The notes below the pieces were generated by a model. It was not told where the DNA came from and searched no databases. It saw only the letters and a program-made list of their open reading frames with translations. 64,000 nucleotides of DNA from Hyphomicrobiaceae bacterium (GTDB lineage: Bacteria > Pseudomonadota > Alphaproteobacteria > Rhizobiales > Hyphomicrobiaceae). The position numbers and the translations under genes were made by a program. The stretch covers positions 7,490 through 71,489 of the forward strand of contig DASZQG010000049.1 in NCBI GenBank assembly GCA_035550075.1. The letters run 5' to 3'. Each line of letters begins with the position of its first letter. Position 1 is the stretch's first letter. Shown piece after piece: positions 5,644 through 62,906 of the stretch.

Positions 5644-6204
5644 TCAGCCCCACGGGCCTCGCATCATGCCGACCATCGGGATGCCGACATCATCCGCATC
5701 CTTTTTCTGCTCGTCGGATAGCACGGCGTAGAGCTTGTTCACCGCCGACTTGACCGACTTGATCTCGTCGAGCCGGACCGTCATGAACTGCTCCTGCGCT
5801 TCGACGCGCTCTGGCAGGGTCTTGCCGCGTTCGCCGCCACCGAAAATGCTCTGCATGCGCTCGTTGTGGTGCTTGGCAGCGGTACGGACCGCATCAGCCA
5901 GTTCGTTCCAGGCCGCGTTCTGAGCTCCCGTGATCTTCAGCTCAGCTTTGACATAAGCAAGCTGCCCCTCGATGCGCTCCAGCATCCATGCGGAGTTGCC
6001 GCCGCGACCCCAGCCCCACATTCCGCCGCCGGGACCCATGCCCCAGCCGGGACCCATGCCCGAGCCGGGACCCATGTGCCATCCCATGCCCCAGCCTCGA
6101 TTGTCGCTGCCGCGATCCGCGGGCGGCCCGCCCTGCGCTACGGCGAATCCAGCAATACTCATCGCAATCGCAGCCGGACCCGCCATTTTGAGCCAAGCGT
6201 TCAT
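5644..6204 (-). CDS. periplasmic Spy/CpxP-like (LTXXQ-type) protein with Met/Gly/Trp-rich N-terminal repeat
   Basis: I chose the internal start MNAWLKMAGPAAIAMSIAGFAVAQG at 6204, which has an AAGGAG RBS 7 nt upstream. The helical C-terminal part carries an LSDEQKK motif (LTXXQ-like). The N-terminal region reads GWGMGWHMGPGSGMGPGWGMGPGGGMWGWG. Confidence 0.8.
   Translation of the reverse strand: MNAWLKMAGPAAIAMSIAGFAVAQGGPPADRGSDNRGWGMGWHMGPGSGMGPGWGMGPGGGMWGWGRGGNSAWMLERIEGQLAYVKAELKITGAQNAAWNELADAVRTAAKHHNERMQSIFGGGERGKTLPERVEAQEQFMTVRLDEIKSVKSAVNKLYAVLSDEQKKDADDVGIPMVGMMRGPWG
6029..6082. repeat. 18-bp tandem repeat x3 inside the Spy-like gene
   Basis: The three units are ccgggacccatgccccag / ccgggacccatgcccgag / ccgggacccatgtgccat. 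On the minus strand they encode the GMGPG(W/S) hexapeptide repeat. Confidence 0.9.
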
Positions 6205-47533: not shown

Positions 47534-47660
47534 CTCCTGGGTCCCGGCTCTCCGCTGCGCTTCGGCCGGGATGACACGAAGAGAACCCCGGCCACCGGCG
47601 TTACATGCCTGCTGCTGTCATCCCGGAACTTCGCGAAGCGAAATATCCGGGATCCAGGGC
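47534..47660. repeat. REP/MITE-like palindromic element, family A, two inverted copies
   Basis: One copy is at 47616-47660 (tgtcatcccggaacttcgcgaagcgaaatatccgggatccagggc). An inverted, diverged copy is at 47534-47577. Each has the nested palindromes TCCCGGA...TCCGGGA. The pair lies between convergent genes. Confidence 0.8.
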
Positions 47661-48844: not shown

Positions 48845-48924
48845 TGGTATTTCCCCCGGTGTTATCGGTCTCCTCTCCGCACTCATCCAGGTGCATCCGG
48901 TGCGACTCTACACCGACGGCGAGG

Positions 48925-49046
48925 GATGAGTGGGCAGAGGGCTGGGGTCAGGGGCGGCTTCAAGCACGGTGAGCGCCCTGGCTGCCCCTCACCCTAACCT
49001 TCTCCCCGTCATGTCGAGGACATGCCCGGCATGGTGGGGAGAGAGG
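48925..49046. repeat. REP-like palindromic element, family B (intergenic copy)
   Basis: The core cccctcaccctaaccttctccccg...ggggagagagg lies at 48985-49046, preceded by the imperfect inverted arm ggggtcagggg. It shares the core with the copy at 56107-56146. Confidence 0.75.
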
Positions 49047-53590: not shown

Positions 53591-56500
53591 TCACGAAGGC
53601 TTGATGGAATTTTCGCTGCGCGGTTGCGTCTCAGCCATCGCCTCGCTCAGCAGCCGGGCGACGTGCTGCGCCGCGCGGCCCGCCCCGTCGGCGATCTGGT
53701 GGCGGCAGGAGAAGCCGTCGGCGGCGATGGCGGTGGCGGCGGGCGCCTTGCGGACGGCGGGCAGCAGCGCCAGTTCGCCCATGGCCAGGGAGACATCGTA
53801 GGTGTCGGCGCCGTAGCCGAAGGCGCCGGCCATGCCGCAGCAGCTTGAATCTACGGTCGCGACCTCGAATCCCTCGACCAGCCCCAGCGTCCGGGTGACC
53901 GCGTCCATCGCCGCGAACGCCTTCTGGTGGCAGTGGCCGTGCAGCAGGATCTTGCGCGTCTGGCGGGCGATCGGGCCTTCGATGCGGCCGGCGGCGGCTT
54001 CGCCGGCGAGAAACTCCTCGAACAGGACGGCGTGTTTGGCCAGCCGGTCGGTCTCGGGGCCCGGCAGCATGGCCAGGAATTCATCGCGCAGCGTGAGCAG
54101 GCACGACGGCTCCAGGCCGACCACAGGCACGCCGCGGGCAAGGAACGGCGCCGCGGCATCCAGCACCCGGCGGGCTTCGGTGCGCGCCTCCTCGACCAGA
54201 CCCGCCGACAGGAAGGTGCGGCCGCAGCAGAGCGGACGCGGCGGCCGGGCGTAGCCATTGCCGGTGGCCGCGCGCAGCACGCTGACGCGGTAGCCGAGCC
54301 GGCCGAGGACATCCACCGCGGCGCGCAGGTTCTCCGGCTCGAAATGGGCGTTGAAGGTGTCGGCGAACAGCGCGACCTCGCGCAGCGAGCCGGGGGCACC
54401 CGAGTTCTCCCCCCTCGAGGGTGCAGAGGCGTCGATCGCGCCGCGATCGTTTCCGTCCGGAGTTCTCCGATCCCTGGCCCCTCCCGGCCAGGGGGAGGGA
54501 AATCCGGCGACGGCCGCCGCCTCGAACACATCCCGCCGCCAGCGCGGCAGCCGGCGGCGCGCGGACAGGCCGGTCATCCCTTGCGTGAGGGCGGCGACGC
54601 CGGGGATGGCGTTGCGCGCGTTCATCAGCGGCGCCACCTTCGACGCGAACGGCGCATAGCGCGGCAGGTAGGCGACCAGCCGGTCGCGCAGCGACAGGCC
54701 GCGCCGCGCGTTGGCCGCGGCCAGCACCTCGATTTTCATTTTCGCCATGTCGACGCCGGTCGGGCACTCGCGCCGGCACCCCTTGCAGGAGACGCACAGC
54801 TTCATCGTCTCGAGCATGTCGTCGGAGGCGAAGGCGTCGGGTCCGAGCTGCCCCGAGATGGCGAGGCGCAACGCGTTCGCGCGCCCGCGGGTGACGTCGC
54901 GCTCGTTGCCCGTCATGCGAAACGAGGGGCACATGACGCCGGCGGCGTGCTTGCGGCACTCGCCGTTGTTGTTGCACATCTCCACCGCGCCCTGGAACCC
55001 GCCGCCCTGTCCCGGGTAGGCCGACCAGTCGAGCGCCATCGTCATTTCGCGCACGCGGTAGTCCGGTTTGAAGCGAAACAGCGTGCGGTCGTCCATGCGC
55101 GAGGGGCGCACGATTTTTCCCGGATTCATGAGGCCGGTTGGATCGAACCGGTCCTTCACCTCCTCGAAAATCTCGACGGTCCTGCGCCCATACATCTTTT
55201 CGTGGAATTCGGAGCGGACCAGCCCGTCGCCGTGCTCGCCGGAGTGCGAGCCCTTGTATTGGCGCACCATGGCGAACGCCTCCTCGGCGATGGCGCGCAT
55301 GGTGCGGGCATCCTTTTCCAGCTTCAGGTTGAGGACGGGGCGCACGTGCAGGCAACCGACGCTGGCGTGCGCGTACCAGGTGCCGCGCGTGCCGTGCCTG
55401 GCGAACACCTCCGTCAGCCGCTCGGTGTAGTCGGCGAGGTGTTCCAGCGGCACCGCGCAGTCCTCGATGAAGGAGACCGGTTTGCCCTCGCTTTTCATCG
55501 ACATCATGATGTTGAGGCCGGAGGCGCGCACGCTCCACACGGCGGCCTGGCCCGCGGCGTCCGGCACTTTCACCACGCTGCCCGGAGAGCCGAGATCGCC
55601 CATCAGCTCTTCGAGGCGGCCGAGGCGGGTCAGATTTTCGGCCTGGTCGTCCTGCGCGAATTCGACCAGCAGCAGCGCGTCCGGTTGCCCGCGCACGTAG
55701 GCGTCCATCACCGGGCGGAACATGGCGATGTCGCGGGCGAGCTCGATCAGCGTGCGATCCACCACCTCCACCGCCACCGGCCCGAGCTTGACGATGTGCT
55801 GCGCGGCCTCCATCGCCTTGCGGAAGGTGGCGAAGTGGCAGATGCCGAGCGCCTTGTTCTTCGGCAGGGGCGACAGCTTGAGCGCGATCTGCCGCGAGAC
55901 GGCGAGCGTGCCCTCCGAGCCGCACAGCAGCGTGGCGAGGTTCACCGGCGCGCTGCCCGGAACCAGCGCGTCGATCAGATAGCCGCCGACGCGGCGCGAC
56001 ACCTCGGGGAAGGCGTGCGCGATGTGGTCCGCCTCGCGCCGGCCGAGCGCGAGCAGGTCGCGGAACAGGGCAAGCGCGGTATCCTCACCACTGGCGCCGC
56101 GCGCATCCCCTCGCCCCGCTTGCGGGGAGAGGGCCAGGGTGAGGGGCGATGCGGGGGAGGGTGAGCCTTGCGCGGGGAGAGGCAGCCCCAGGTTATGCCC
56201 CACCTCGCCGACCCGCGCCTCGCTGCCGTCGGGCAGGATGGCGTCGATGGCGATCACGTTGTCGCGCATGATCCCGTAGCGGATCGAGCGCGTGCCGCAC
56301 GAGTTGTTGCCGGTCATGCCGCCGATGGTGGCGCGGCTGGACGTCGAGACGTCGACCGGAAACCACAGGCCCGTCGGCTTGAGCTTTCGGTTCAGCTCGT
56401 CCAGCACGATGCCCGGTTCGACGAGGCAGGTGCGCGCCTCGGCGTCCGTGCTCACGATCCGGTTCAGGTACTTCGAGAAATCGAGCACCAGCGCGCGCCC

Positions 56501-56761
56501 CACCGTCTGCCCGGATTGGGAGGTGGCGCCGCCGCGCGGCAGGATGGGCACGCCCTCCTCGCGGGCGATGGCCATCGCGGCGTGCACGTCGGCCGCCGTT
56601 TTCGGCACCACCACGCCCAGCGGCTCGATCTGGTAGTGTGAGGCGTCGGTGGAATAGCGCCCCCGGGAAAAAGCATCGAAGAGAACCTCGCCCTCCAGCG
56701 CCGCCTTGAGGCGCGCGGCAAGCCGGTGCGAGGCAGGGCGGGCGGAGGTCGATGCGGGCAT
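53591..56761 (-). CDS. FAD-binding oxidase / 4Fe-4S / CCG-domain fusion oxidoreductase (YdiJ-like, GlcD-GlcF type)
   Basis: 1056 aa. The N-terminal FAD-binding PCMH domain is PLGVVVPKTAADVHAAMAIAREEGVPILPRGGATSQSGQ. Ferredoxin-type clusters are CNNNGECRK..C and CVSCKGCRRECP. The C-terminal part carries Cys-rich CCG repeats. Confidence 0.9.
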   Translation of the reverse strand: MPASTSARPASHRLAARLKAALEGEVLFDAFSRGRYSTDASHYQIEPLGVVVPKTAADVHAAMAIAREEGVPILPRGGATSQSGQTVGRALVLDFSKYLNRIVSTDAEARTCLVEPGIVLDELNRKLKPTGLWFPVDVSTSSRATIGGMTGNNSCGTRSIRYGIMRDNVIAIDAILPDGSEARVGEVGHNLGLPLPAQGSPSPASPLTLALSPQAGRGDARGASGEDTALALFRDLLALGRREADHIAHAFPEVSRRVGGYLIDALVPGSAPVNLATLLCGSEGTLAVSRQIALKLSPLPKNKALGICHFATFRKAMEAAQHIVKLGPVAVEVVDRTLIELARDIAMFRPVMDAYVRGQPDALLLVEFAQDDQAENLTRLGRLEELMGDLGSPGSVVKVPDAAGQAAVWSVRASGLNIMMSMKSEGKPVSFIEDCAVPLEHLADYTERLTEVFARHGTRGTWYAHASVGCLHVRPVLNLKLEKDARTMRAIAEEAFAMVRQYKGSHSGEHGDGLVRSEFHEKMYGRRTVEIFEEVKDRFDPTGLMNPGKIVRPSRMDDRTLFRFKPDYRVREMTMALDWSAYPGQGGGFQGAVEMCNNNGECRKHAAGVMCPSFRMTGNERDVTRGRANALRLAISGQLGPDAFASDDMLETMKLCVSCKGCRRECPTGVDMAKMKIEVLAAANARRGLSLRDRLVAYLPRYAPFASKVAPLMNARNAIPGVAALTQGMTGLSARRRLPRWRRDVFEAAAVAGFPSPWPGGARDRRTPDGNDRGAIDASAPSRGENSGAPGSLREVALFADTFNAHFEPENLRAAVDVLGRLGYRVSVLRAATGNGYARPPRPLCCGRTFLSAGLVEEARTEARRVLDAAAPFLARGVPVVGLEPSCLLTLRDEFLAMLPGPETDRLAKHAVLFEEFLAGEAAAGRIEGPIARQTRKILLHGHCHQKAFAAMDAVTRTLGLVEGFEVATVDSSCCGMAGAFGYGADTYDVSLAMGELALLPAVRKAPAATAIAADGFSCRHQIADGAGRAAQHVARLLSEAMAETQPRSENSIKPS
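56107..56185 (-). repeat. REP-like element family B embedded in frame inside the oxidoreductase gene
   Basis: Minus sense: cctctccccgcgcaaggctcaccctcccccgcatcgcccctcaccctggccctctccccgcaagcggggcgagggg. It is translated as LPLPAQGSPSPASPLTLALSPQAGRG. Confidence 0.75.
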
Positions 56762-62839: not shown

Positions 62840-62861
62840 GGTCCTTTCCAACCGCCCCATC

Positions 62862-62906
62862 TGTCATCCCGGAAAGGCGCGAAGCGCCATATCCGGGAGC
62901 CAGGGG
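62862..62906. repeat. REP-like element family A, third copy
   Basis: tgtcatcccggaaaggcgcgaagcgccatatccgggagccagggg is nearly identical in its ends to 47616-47660. It also lies between convergent genes. Confidence 0.8.

What the first reader, a model, noticed from the sequence alone, without database searches (positions are those of the whole stretch)
56107..56185. REP-like palindromic element inserted in frame inside a 1056-aa FAD/Fe-S oxidoreductase
On the coding (minus) strand the gene contains cctctccccgcgcaagg ctcaccctccccc gcatcg cccctcaccctggccctctccccgcaagcggggcgagggg. Its core (cccctcaccct..(N5)..tctccccg plus a hairpin) is shared with the intergenic element at 48985-49046. The segment is translated as LPLPAQGSPSPASPLTLALSPQAGRGDARGASGED. 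It sits just after the FAD-binding domain, in what looks like a linker. A dispersed intergenic repeat seems to have landed in a coding region without breaking the frame. It may be tolerated or exapted as a flexible linker, and its RNA hairpin could also modulate translation or mRNA stability.
Basis: partly seen in the sequence, partly recalled or inferred. Interest (0 to 1): 0.65.

Follow-up and report, generated by a model that had tools for sequence, protein, structure and literature searches.

The report
Decayed REP repeat translated inside an enzyme
A short selfish palindromic DNA repeat, normally found between genes, sits in frame inside a FAD/iron-sulfur dehydrogenase gene and is read through as a 27-residue floppy loop; this kind of insertion is already known, but here two linkers of the same enzyme are repeat-landing sites across a whole bacterial clade.

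Summary
Window 56105-56185 (minus strand) is an 81-nt, 27-codon insertion (L193-D219) in a 1056-aa YdiJ-like FAD/Fe-S oxidoreductase. Seventy orthologues from other species lack about 29 residues there, and the closest empty-site relative lacks exactly 27.

Its 3' 40 nt match, at every conserved position, the consensus of a dispersed REP/REPIN-like family. That family occurs in at least 119 places in other genomes, mostly Hyphomicrobiales. A second copy lies between genes at 48918-49043.

The window copy is a remnant. The full element is about 146-150 nt and folds into three hairpins (z = -7.2). The window copy has lost about 66 nt and folds no better than shuffled sequence.

The predicted structure places the insert in a low-confidence coil between a strand and a helix. 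It also changes faster than the rest of the gene. I read it as tolerated selfish DNA, not as an adapted linker or an RNA switch.

Two things go beyond the original finding. Among 120 close homologues, this site and a second linker (aa ~745-795) carry at least six repeat families, nested insertions, or nothing. Proteins 96% identical can differ in family. The same family also sits in frame in UvrA, UvrC, DNA ligase and oxoprolinase elsewhere.

Intragenic REPs and Rickettsia RPEs are already described, so this is a new member of a known kind.

The parts
53591..56761 (-). Host gene: a 1056-aa YdiJ-like FAD/Fe-S oxidoreductase (GlcD-like N-terminal half, 4Fe-4S dicluster, GlpC-like C-terminal half). 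It is followed by tctB-tctA, as in its orthologues.
   Evidence: ORF. Pfam. NCBIfam YdiJ scores 492.8 bits, below the 1350 cut-off, with GlcD and GlpC partial hits. Synteny. Purifying selection is visible: codon positions 1 and 2 are 85-89% identical and position 3 is 62-65% identical against orthologues.
56105..56185 (-). The in-frame insertion: 81 nt, 27 codons (L193-D219, LPLPAQGSPSPASPLTLALSPQAGRGD). It is an internally deleted derivative of a ~146-150-nt three-hairpin REPIN-like element.
   Evidence: Absent from 70 distant orthologues and from empty-site close relatives. DNA alignment to the full element in L082 and L087 shows about 66 nt missing. The whole 50-aa translation of the full element recurs in unrelated stand-alone small ORFs.
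56107..56146 (-). The intact right-half REP unit: tail CCCCTCACCCT, spacer GG, then a hairpin. The hairpin arms are CCCTCTCCCCGC (56133-56122) and GCGGGGCGAGGG (56119-56108), with an AA loop.
   Evidence: Matches the cross-genome consensus ctGCCCCTCACCCTAaCCCTCTCCCCGCAAGCGGGGaGAGGGgAc at all conserved positions. The local RNA fold is -21.4 kcal/mol but z is only -0.97.
56147..56185 (-). The decayed left part of the element. It holds the left hairpin arm cctctccccgcgcaa and a short, partial duplicate of the core (ctcaccctcccccgc).
   Evidence: Alignment with L082 and L087. The left arm is 91.7% identical over 24 nt to L087.
48918..49043 (+). Intergenic copy of the same family, between the panB-like and aminotransferase genes. 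It forms two hairpins, and the core lies at 48985-49008.
   Evidence: (z = -3.24; 2 of 200 shuffles fold as well). The intergenic position is inferred from the gene calls of L081.
54392..54508 (-). Second hypervariable linker, between the Fe-S domain and the GlpC-like domain. This protein has about 36 extra residues (GFPSPWPGGARDRRTPDGNDRGAIDASAPSRGENSG). It is probably a decayed repeat remnant.
   Evidence: The span is 88 aa here against a minimum of 52 among homologues. Many homologues carry recognisable repeat translations at this spot. In this window only a weak hairpin match to repeats remains. The model shows low-pLDDT coil at 752-793.

Best explanation
A non-autonomous, G+C-rich palindromic repeat of the REP/REPIN type landed in a permissive loop of a YdiJ-like FAD/Fe-S dehydrogenase, just after the conserved GHNL motif and before helix 223-250. 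The full element is about 146-150 nt: two inverted ~40-nt units, each a CCCCTCACCCT tail plus a CCCTCTCCCCGC-AA-GCGGGGAGAGGG hairpin.

The element has no stop codon in the frame used, so it is translated through as a Pro/Leu/Ser/Gly-rich surface loop and the enzyme stays intact. The copy in this window has since lost about 66 nt and most of its palindromic structure. It now behaves as nearly neutral filler.

This loop and a second inter-domain linker act as landing pads across the clade. New repeats insert into resident ones or replace them. Purifying selection removes insertions everywhere else in the gene.

Shown: the insertion, its family membership, its decay, relaxed constraint, and the turnover at two sites. 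Inferred: the transposition mechanism (presumably a Y1/RAYT-like single-strand transposase, possibly combined with gene conversion between copies), translation of the insert, and its neutrality for enzyme function.
For: Insertion: orthologues lack 27-29 residues at this point.

Family: the core pattern occurs twice in the window where none is expected. The consensus is given. An inverted partner lies within 200 nt in 24 of 112 sampled copies. The full element in L082 folds into three hairpins, z = -7.15, with 0 of 200 shuffles as good. The whole unit recurs in stand-alone small ORFs with unrelated flanks. Intergenic copies lie in the flanks of orthologous loci.

Decay and relaxed constraint: the window copy folds like shuffles. 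Against the 99.15%-identical L081 gene, 3 of 90 nt differ in insert 1 and 3 of 153 in linker 2, compared with 21 of 2928 elsewhere. Five of the 14 amino-acid changes fall in the two inserts.

Structure: residues 187-222 are coil, with pLDDT below 50 for 190-223.

Turnover: at least six peptide classes occur at site 1, and 14 of 121 proteins have an empty site. A GTAG-type repeat is nested inside the B element in L089. L210 (B) and L211 (C) are 91.6% identical in DNA, and identity collapses only at the two linkers and the 3' end.

Open frames: 2 of 6 frames are open for the full element and 3-5 of 6 for a single unit.

Generality: in-frame copies lie in oxoprolinase, UvrA, UvrC and DNA ligase, with Pfam domains on both sides.
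Against: No transposase was identified or looked for, because the rest of the genome is not available. No target-site duplication is visible at the junctions.

The B- and C-type inserts of L082 and L086 share the same right junction (aatcccgttgg). That fits in-situ conversion or allele exchange better than independent transposition.

The 39-nt core is 90-97% identical between orthologues whose four-fold sites are only 55-65% identical. So the copies are not simply drifting. They must be young, homogenised, or constrained at the DNA/RNA level.

The AF2 model is only moderate (mean pLDDT 67.5), and many other segments are also below 50. 'Disordered loop' is therefore consistent with the model but not proven. 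Translation of the insert has not been observed.
Confidence: 0.85

Rival explanations
1. The insert has been exapted. Either the Pro/Gly-rich peptide serves as a functional flexible linker or interaction loop, or the mRNA hairpin tunes translation or mRNA stability, for example by pausing ribosomes between folding units.
For: The insert sits at a sub-domain boundary. Most members of the GHNL clade carry some insert at this spot. The REP core is more conserved between orthologues than synonymous sites are. A stem of 11 paired bases and one mismatch remains.
Against: Length (0 to about 60 extra residues), family and sequence of the insert vary among proteins 92-98% identical. Empty-site relatives are interspersed among occupied ones. 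The window copy folds no better than shuffles. The stem-pair change against L081 (G-C to C/T) is not compensatory. Amino-acid changes are concentrated in the inserts.
Confidence: 0.08
2. The diversity at this site does not come from repeated transposition. It comes from one ancient insertion whose sequence is repeatedly overwritten, either by gene conversion from other genomic copies or by homologous recombination that shuffles old alleles (B, C, D) between lineages. This rival concerns the mechanism of turnover only and is compatible with the main explanation for the window copy.
For: B- and C-type inserts share an identical right junction, and B, C and D types share homologous flanks. All three types have the same three-hairpin architecture with similar terminal arms. 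Core identity of 90-97% despite saturated synonymous sites. Sharp identity breakpoints around both linkers in L210 against L211. B-bearing P0084 and P0098 cluster with empty-site sequences in the NJ tree.
Against: Nested elements of unrelated families (the GTAG-type element in L089; GSDPS...RGLTP peptides in P0043, P0055 and P0077) require real insertions. Left junctions differ by 1-4 codons. The tree is an unbootstrapped NJ tree of metagenome-derived proteins.
Confidence: 0.35
3. This is not a mobile-element insertion. It is a fast-evolving, low-complexity native linker that resembles REP sequences by compositional chance.
For: The region is Pro/Gly/Ser-rich in a 66% G+C genome. The local fold is not special.
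Against: The 40-nt unit matches the family consensus at all conserved positions. An exact 30-specified-base pattern hits at least 119 unrelated loci. None is expected by chance in the window. Longer orthologous inserts contain the complete element, which is also found as stand-alone intergenic copies.
Confidence: 0.01
4. This is an assembly artefact or pseudogene: a repeat-induced misjoin, or a broken gene that is no longer expressed.
For: The window and most relatives come from metagenome assemblies. Repeats can cause misassembly.
Against: An independent JGI contig of 664 kb (L081) carries the same insertion at the same place, with 0.85% divergence and an intact 1056-codon frame. Conserved domains and invariant residues lie on both sides. 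Codon-position pattern shows purifying selection.
Confidence: 0.02

Closest known systems
Rickettsia palindromic elements (RPEs; Ogata et al. 2000 and 2002, as summarised in PMC10969869 and PMC3733652)
   Same: Palindromic repeats of about 100-150 bp, present both between genes and in frame inside many unrelated, apparently functional genes. They are translated as extra peptide segments thought to sit where the fold tolerates them. The same gene classes are hit (uvr and other DNA repair genes).
   Different: The host is a free-living, G+C-rich member of the Hyphomicrobiales rather than a reduced intracellular Rickettsia. The sequence is unrelated (G+C-rich CCCTCTCCCC hairpins). The family spans many genera. 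Here two fixed linkers of one gene are occupied by several families in turn. No sequence comparison with the RPE families was run.
Intragenic GTAG- and CGTC-tagged REPs (Di Nocera, De Gregorio and Rocco 2013, PMC3733652)
   Same: [quoted passage not shown] Inserts encode 20-30 residues, or 43-82 residues for clusters. Different REPs lie at about the same site in the recB genes of Xanthomonas campestris and X. oryzae. The element nested in L089 begins with GTAGGTTGGG, which is a GTAG-type REP.
   Different: The B family has a 12-bp all-G+C stem and an 11-nt tail. The described CGTC families have 8-9-bp stems that start with A-T pairs. Only 17 of 112 sampled copies carry CGTC, and 44 of 112 carry NGTC. 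A YdiJ-like host gene and the two-linker hotspot are not in the parts of that paper I read.
REPINs mobilised by RAYT transposases (Bertels and Rainey 2011, PMC3116915, PMC3337134)
   Same: [quoted passage not shown] The copies form a dispersed population with a conserved master sequence. Singlets occur as decay products.
   Different: No RAYT gene was examined. [quoted passage not shown] I did not check how lineage-specific their sequences are. This core is identical across orders, and apparently across classes.
In-frame fusions of MITE-type repeats such as ERIC, YPAL/RU-2, RU-3 and BOX (Delihas 2007 and 2011, PMC3184786)
   Same: Small repeats with open reading frames, found fused in frame to or inside protein genes.
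   Different: Those elements have terminal inverted repeats and often target-site duplications. Neither is seen at the junctions here.

Membership tests
REP / REPIN (RAYT-associated palindromic repeats) | A short (20-45 nt), G+C-rich imperfect palindrome with a conserved sequence | tested here: met
   The 40-nt unit at 56107-56146 matches the family consensus. Its stem has 11 paired bases and one mismatch.
REP / REPIN (RAYT-associated palindromic repeats) | Many dispersed copies, mostly intergenic | tested here: inconclusive
   At least 119 loci across genomes, plus intergenic copies in the flanks of orthologous loci. In this 64-kb window there are only 2 copies. The genome-wide count for this organism could not be made.
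REP / REPIN (RAYT-associated palindromic repeats) | Inverted doublet of two REP units that forms a long hairpin (REPIN) | tested here: met
   The full element in L082 has three hairpins, z = -7.15. An inverted partner lies within 200 nt in 24 of 112 copies. The window copy keeps only a remnant of the left half.
REP / REPIN (RAYT-associated palindromic repeats) | A cognate RAYT (Y1 HUH transposase) gene in the genome, typically flanked by REPs | not tested
   Only the window and flanks of up to 10 kb were available. No search for Y1 transposases was run.
REP / REPIN (RAYT-associated palindromic repeats) | A conserved unpaired tetranucleotide tag (GTAG or CGTC) at one end | tested here: inconclusive
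   On the opposite strand the 4 nt next to the stem are NGTC in 44 of 112 copies and CGTC in 17 of 112. The window copy has CATC. Stem length and composition differ from the four published CGTC families (PMC3733652).
Rickettsia palindromic elements (RPE) | In-frame occurrence inside many unrelated functional genes | tested here: met
   The same family lies in frame in oxoprolinase, UvrA, UvrC and ATP-dependent DNA ligase, with Pfam domains on both sides, and in this oxidoreductase.
Rickettsia palindromic elements (RPE) | Sequence membership in RPE-1 to RPE-10, and a Rickettsia host | not tested
   No RPE sequences were compared. Named relatives of the host gene are Hyphomicrobiaceae MAGs, so this is an analogue and not a member.
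MITE (DDE-transposase-derived miniature element) | Terminal inverted repeats flanked by a target-site duplication | tested here: not met
   No duplicated flanking bases appear at the junctions in the window, L082, L087 or L086. Old duplications could have decayed.
YdiJ D-2-hydroxyglutarate dehydrogenase (host gene) | Score above the NCBIfam equivalog cut-off for NF049975 | tested here: not met
   492.8 bits against a cut-off of 1350. The domain architecture is the same (FAD_binding_4, FAD-oxidase_C, 4Fe-4S dicluster, GlpC-like C-terminus). So it is YdiJ-like, with substrate unknown.

The most novel reading that the evidence does not exclude
Resident REP copies in coding linkers may act as homing sites. 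New REP families would insert into the old copy or overwrite it at a fixed junction, by targeted single-strand transposition or by gene conversion. In that case two linkers of a conserved enzyme would evolve mainly through selfish-DNA turnover, while the repeat arms stay close to the family master sequence. The 100+ orthologues would then form a natural time series for measuring REP gain, replacement and decay inside a gene. A bolder variant is that the conserved arms are kept because they act in the mRNA or DNA, for example as a binding site or a co-translational pause.
Probability: 0.2. Interest if true: 0.65.

Novelty: new member of a known kind. Interest (0 to 1): 0.4.

Why it matters
In-frame REP and RPE insertions show how selfish DNA can lengthen proteins without destroying them. 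This case adds a free-living, G+C-rich lineage to the known examples.

Through its orthologues it also offers a dense natural experiment. The same two linkers of one enzyme are empty, singly occupied, doubly occupied, nested, or swapped between repeat families in proteins up to 96-98% identical. That marks which sites in a YdiJ-like enzyme tolerate insertions, which is useful for protein engineering. It also makes rates of REP gain, replacement, conversion and decay measurable.

There is a practical point for annotation as well. Peptides such as PLTLTLSPQAGRGD, APHPNPLPASGER and PSPRLRGEGQGEG are translations of one repeat. They should not be read as motifs, and they can mislead alignments. 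In one search phmmer aligned the insert to the GYDL...GSEGTLG FAD motif.

Tried and rejected
- Rfam at gathering threshold over the whole window found no family.
- A peptide search with the 50-aa translation of the full element, meant to list other host proteins, scored only 30 candidates. It returned 14 stand-alone small ORFs and not even the oxidoreductases. It shows that the unit is dispersed but says nothing about host range.
- The search for related loci in genome contigs returned mainly 51-66% orthologues, with one partial 76% match (L034). These were good as an outgroup but useless for junctions, so close relatives were fetched one at a time.
- My first ORF-picking script chose wrong frames and was redone (replaced).
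- I tested whether the coding copy forms an exceptional hairpin. It does not: z = +1.1, +0.3 and -1.0.
- The NJ tree of masked alignments is star-like and has no bootstrap. I use it only to show that insert types are intermixed, not to count events.
- The AF2 model is of moderate quality (mean pLDDT 67.5). Its Foldseek matches to D-lactate dehydrogenases reach only TM ~0.53. I use it only for secondary-structure boundaries.
- For linker 2 of the window gene I looked for a recognisable repeat. Only a weak match of about 30 nt to a hairpin turned up.
- I considered assigning the family to the CGTC REP superfamily and did not, because the stem features differ.
Full report
**1. What is in the sequence**

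The quoted string lies at 56107-56185 on the minus strand. It is inside the ORF 53591-56761 (-), which encodes 1056 aa.

Pfam finds FAD_binding_4 (aa 47-184), FAD-oxidase_C (299-550) and a 4Fe-4S dicluster (593-671). NCBIfam's best match is the YdiJ D-2-hydroxyglutarate dehydrogenase model at 492.8 bits, below its 1350-bit cut-off. GlcD-like matches cover the N-terminal half and GlpC-like matches the C-terminal half. The host gene is therefore a YdiJ-like FAD/Fe-S oxidoreductase of unknown substrate. In its close relatives it is followed by tctB-tctA, directly in most and after two intervening genes in L088; the empty-site relative L090 has a DctPQM transporter there instead.

The 23-mer CCCTCACCCTNNCCCTCTCCCCG occurs exactly twice in the window, at 56123-56145 (-) and 48986-49008 (+). 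None is expected by chance.

**2. It is an insertion**

I compared seventy orthologues from species-representative genomes (51-66% identity, across Proteobacteria). Between IDAIL and GRREAD they have 37-50 residues (mode 45) in all but three cases. The window protein has 74.

Among the 120 closest homologues (70-99% identity, several named Hyphomicrobiaceae), the same span ranges from 43 to 104 residues. Fourteen of them have the short state ...DGRNVPDAARELMRDLL. The closest empty-site member of the GHNL group, P0050, reads GHNL-DRAATESTDRAV-ALFRDLL. The window protein reads GHNL-G-[LPLPAQGSPSPASPLTLALSPQAGRGD]-ARGASGEDTAL-ALFRDLL.

The inserted block is therefore 27 codons, 81 nt, at 56105-56185.

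**3. What was inserted**

The orthologue in L082 carries 150 extra nt at this spot. The sequence is ctccctctccccgc-(loop)-gcggggagag-cgc-tggggtgagggg-(spacer)-cccctcaccc-taa-ccctctccccgc-aa-gcggggagaggg. As single-stranded DNA this folds into three hairpins, with z = -7.15 and 0 of 200 shuffles as stable. In other words it consists of two inverted ~40-nt units, each a tail plus a hairpin, which is the REPIN layout.

The whole 50-residue translation of this unit recurs in stand-alone 63-86-aa 'hypothetical' ORFs with unrelated flanks. The ~146-150 nt are therefore one dispersed unit.

Most were Hyphomicrobiales (Bradyrhizobium, Shinella, Ensifer/Sinorhizobium, Mesorhizobium, Rhizobium, Hyphomicrobiaceae, Beijerinckiaceae). 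There were also isolates of Solimonas, Stenotrophobium and Asticcacaulis, and a few MAGs of other phyla.

The consensus is ctGCCCCTCACCCTAaCCCTCTCCCCGCAAGCGGGGaGAGGGgAc. Twenty-four of 112 sampled copies have an inverted partner within 200 nt. The four bases next to the stem, read on the other strand, are NGTC in 44 of 112 and CGTC in 17 of 112.

The window's 40 nt at 56107-56146 agree with every conserved consensus position.

Copies of this and sister families also lie between genes in the flanks of the orthologous loci. The window's own intergenic copy spans about 48918-49043 and forms two hairpins, z = -3.24. Rfam has no matching family.

**4. State of the window copy**

Aligned with L082 and L087, the window copy keeps the left arm (cctctccccgcgcaa) and the complete right unit. 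It lacks about 66 nt in between, where it has ggctcaccctcccccgcatcg, which looks like a partial duplicate of the core.

It folds no better than shuffled sequence. z is +1.1 for 106 nt as RNA, +0.3 for the 81 nt as DNA, and -1.0 for the right unit as RNA.

An independent 664-kb contig (L081) carries the same insertion in a gene 99.15% identical. Three of 90 nt differ in insert 1 and 3 of 153 in linker 2, against 21 of 2928 elsewhere. Five of the 14 amino-acid changes fall in the two inserts. The G-C pair in the stem has become C/T, which is not compensatory.

The AF2 model (mean pLDDT 67.5) has coil at 187-222 and pLDDT below 50 at 190-223, between strand 181-186 and helix 223-250. Its N-terminal half resembles D-lactate dehydrogenases.

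All of this fits a tolerated, decaying insert. None of it suggests an adapted peptide or an RNA switch.

**5. The wider pattern**

At this site the 120 homologues carry translations of at least six repeat families:
- B: ...GERAGVRG...PLTLTLSPQAGRGD
- C: WGRDREGG...PPPLTPPHKGEGN
- D: GRVARSAGWG...PTPNPSPQGGGE
- E: VGWVRPKAVTQHP...VGLRADALTQPT
- F: PPPGGEGLGVGG
- G: GSDPS...RGLTP

Types C and D have the same three-hairpin architecture as B at the DNA level. In L089 a GTAG-type repeat is nested between the left arm and the terminal loop of the B element. In several proteins the G element is followed by the B tail, SPQAGRGD.

Nearest neighbours differ in insert type in 66 of 121 cases. P0047 (B) and P0060 (C) are 96.4% identical outside the linkers. 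Their genes (L210, L211) are 91.6% identical in DNA, and identity collapses only at site 1, at site 2 and at the 3' end.

Site 2 (aa ~745-795, between the Fe-S and GlpC-like parts) spans 52-112 residues. It often carries the B element in other frames or orientation, giving PSPRLRGEGRGEGQ...APHPNPLP. In the window it has about 36 extra residues, with only a weak repeat signature.

**6. An unexplained point**

The 39-nt core is 90-97% identical between orthologues whose four-fold degenerate sites are only 55-65% identical. Yet it is 92% identical between the window and L081, whose four-fold sites are 98% identical. B- and C-type inserts in L082 and L086 share the right junction aatcccgttgg.

In-gene copies are therefore renewed or homogenised rather than simply inherited. 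Re-insertion into resident copies, gene conversion from other copies, and recombination of old alleles all remain possible.

**7. Generality and prior knowledge**

Of 123 sampled copies in other genomes, at least five lie in frame in bona fide proteins. These are two oxoprolinases (one with three inserts), UvrA of a Hyphomicrobium, UvrC, and an ATP-dependent DNA ligase. Pfam confirmed domains on both sides of the insert for four of them, namely one oxoprolinase, UvrA, UvrC and the ligase; the three-insert oxoprolinase (L199) was judged by eye only.

The element has few stop codons. Two of 6 frames are open for the full element and 3-5 of 6 for a single unit. Frame-preserving insertions are therefore not rare.

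This behaviour is already described. [quoted passage not shown] REPINs and RAYTs supply the likely mechanism.

I did not assign the B family to a published CGTC family, because its 12-bp G+C stem differs from those described.

**8. Verdict**

The copy is a decayed remnant, tolerated rather than demonstrably useful.

It is a new member of a known kind. The more interesting result is the clade-wide turnover of several repeat families at two fixed linkers of one enzyme.

Noticed in passing
window 54392-54508 (-), aa ~752-790 of the same gene; also L082 5106-5212, L089 12265-12357, L088 12295-12394: A second hypervariable linker lies between the Fe-S domain and the GlpC-like domain. It spans 52-112 aa among homologues and often holds repeat elements in other frames or orientation. 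The window protein has about 36 extra residues there with only a faint hairpin remnant.
   Followed up: partly
L153, L199, L167, L132, L186 (loci from the scan): The same repeat family lies in frame inside oxoprolinase/hydantoinase (three inserts in L199), UvrA of a Hyphomicrobium, UvrC and an ATP-dependent DNA ligase. Pfam domains lie on both sides of the insert.
   Followed up: partly
loci L091-L209: An exact pattern with 30 specified bases of this non-coding repeat occurs in many genera of Hyphomicrobiales. It also occurs in Solimonas, Stenotrophobium, Asticcacaulis and some Betaproteobacteria, Acidobacteriota, Verrucomicrobiota and Chloroflexota MAGs. That is unusually broad for a REP sequence. 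Horizontal spread, a conserved mobiliser and bin contamination were not distinguished.
   Followed up: no
window 56108-56146 compared with L082, L083, L087: The in-gene REP core is 90-97% identical between orthologues whose four-fold sites are 55-65% identical. It is also the fastest-changing part between two 99%-identical genes. This suggests renewal or homogenisation of in-gene copies.
   Followed up: partly
L089 10571-10714; proteins P0037, P0040, P0054: A GTAG-type REP doublet (gtaggttgggtta...taacccaacctac, translated VGWVRPKAVTQHP...VGLRADALTQPT) is nested inside the resident B element, between its left arm and its terminal loop.
   Followed up: partly
window 47565-47659 and 62861-62905: Another dispersed palindromic repeat (CTGTCATCCCGGAA...GCGAAGCG...ATATCCGGGA.CCAGGG, 87% identical over 45 nt). 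An inverted partial copy lies at 47565-47576, so there is probably a doublet at the first site.
   Followed up: no
window 6019-6084: Three overlapping copies of a 30-nt unit at 18-nt spacing (CATGCCCCAGCCGGGACC-like). This is probably a short tandem repeat in a Gly/Pro/Met-rich coding stretch.
   Followed up: no
proteins P0084 and P0098 compared with P0093, P0104, P0106: In the masked NJ tree, two proteins carrying the B insert cluster among empty-site (GRNVPDAAREL) proteins. This could reflect recombination of the N-terminal region, or only poor tree resolution.
   Followed up: no
window gene aa 188-214 aligned to PDB 9qgz: phmmer aligned the repeat-derived peptide to the GYDL...GSEGTLG FAD-domain motif of a D-lactate dehydrogenase. 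The true counterpart is GGYLID...CGSEGTL at aa 259-285. This is an example of a repeat translation misleading an alignment.
   Followed up: yes
protein P0079, site 1: The terminal hairpin loop of its B element carries a further 19-residue insertion (SPQ-ALGPSVDRTSVTRARG-QAGRGD), so it has a third layer of insertion at the same spot.
   Followed up: no
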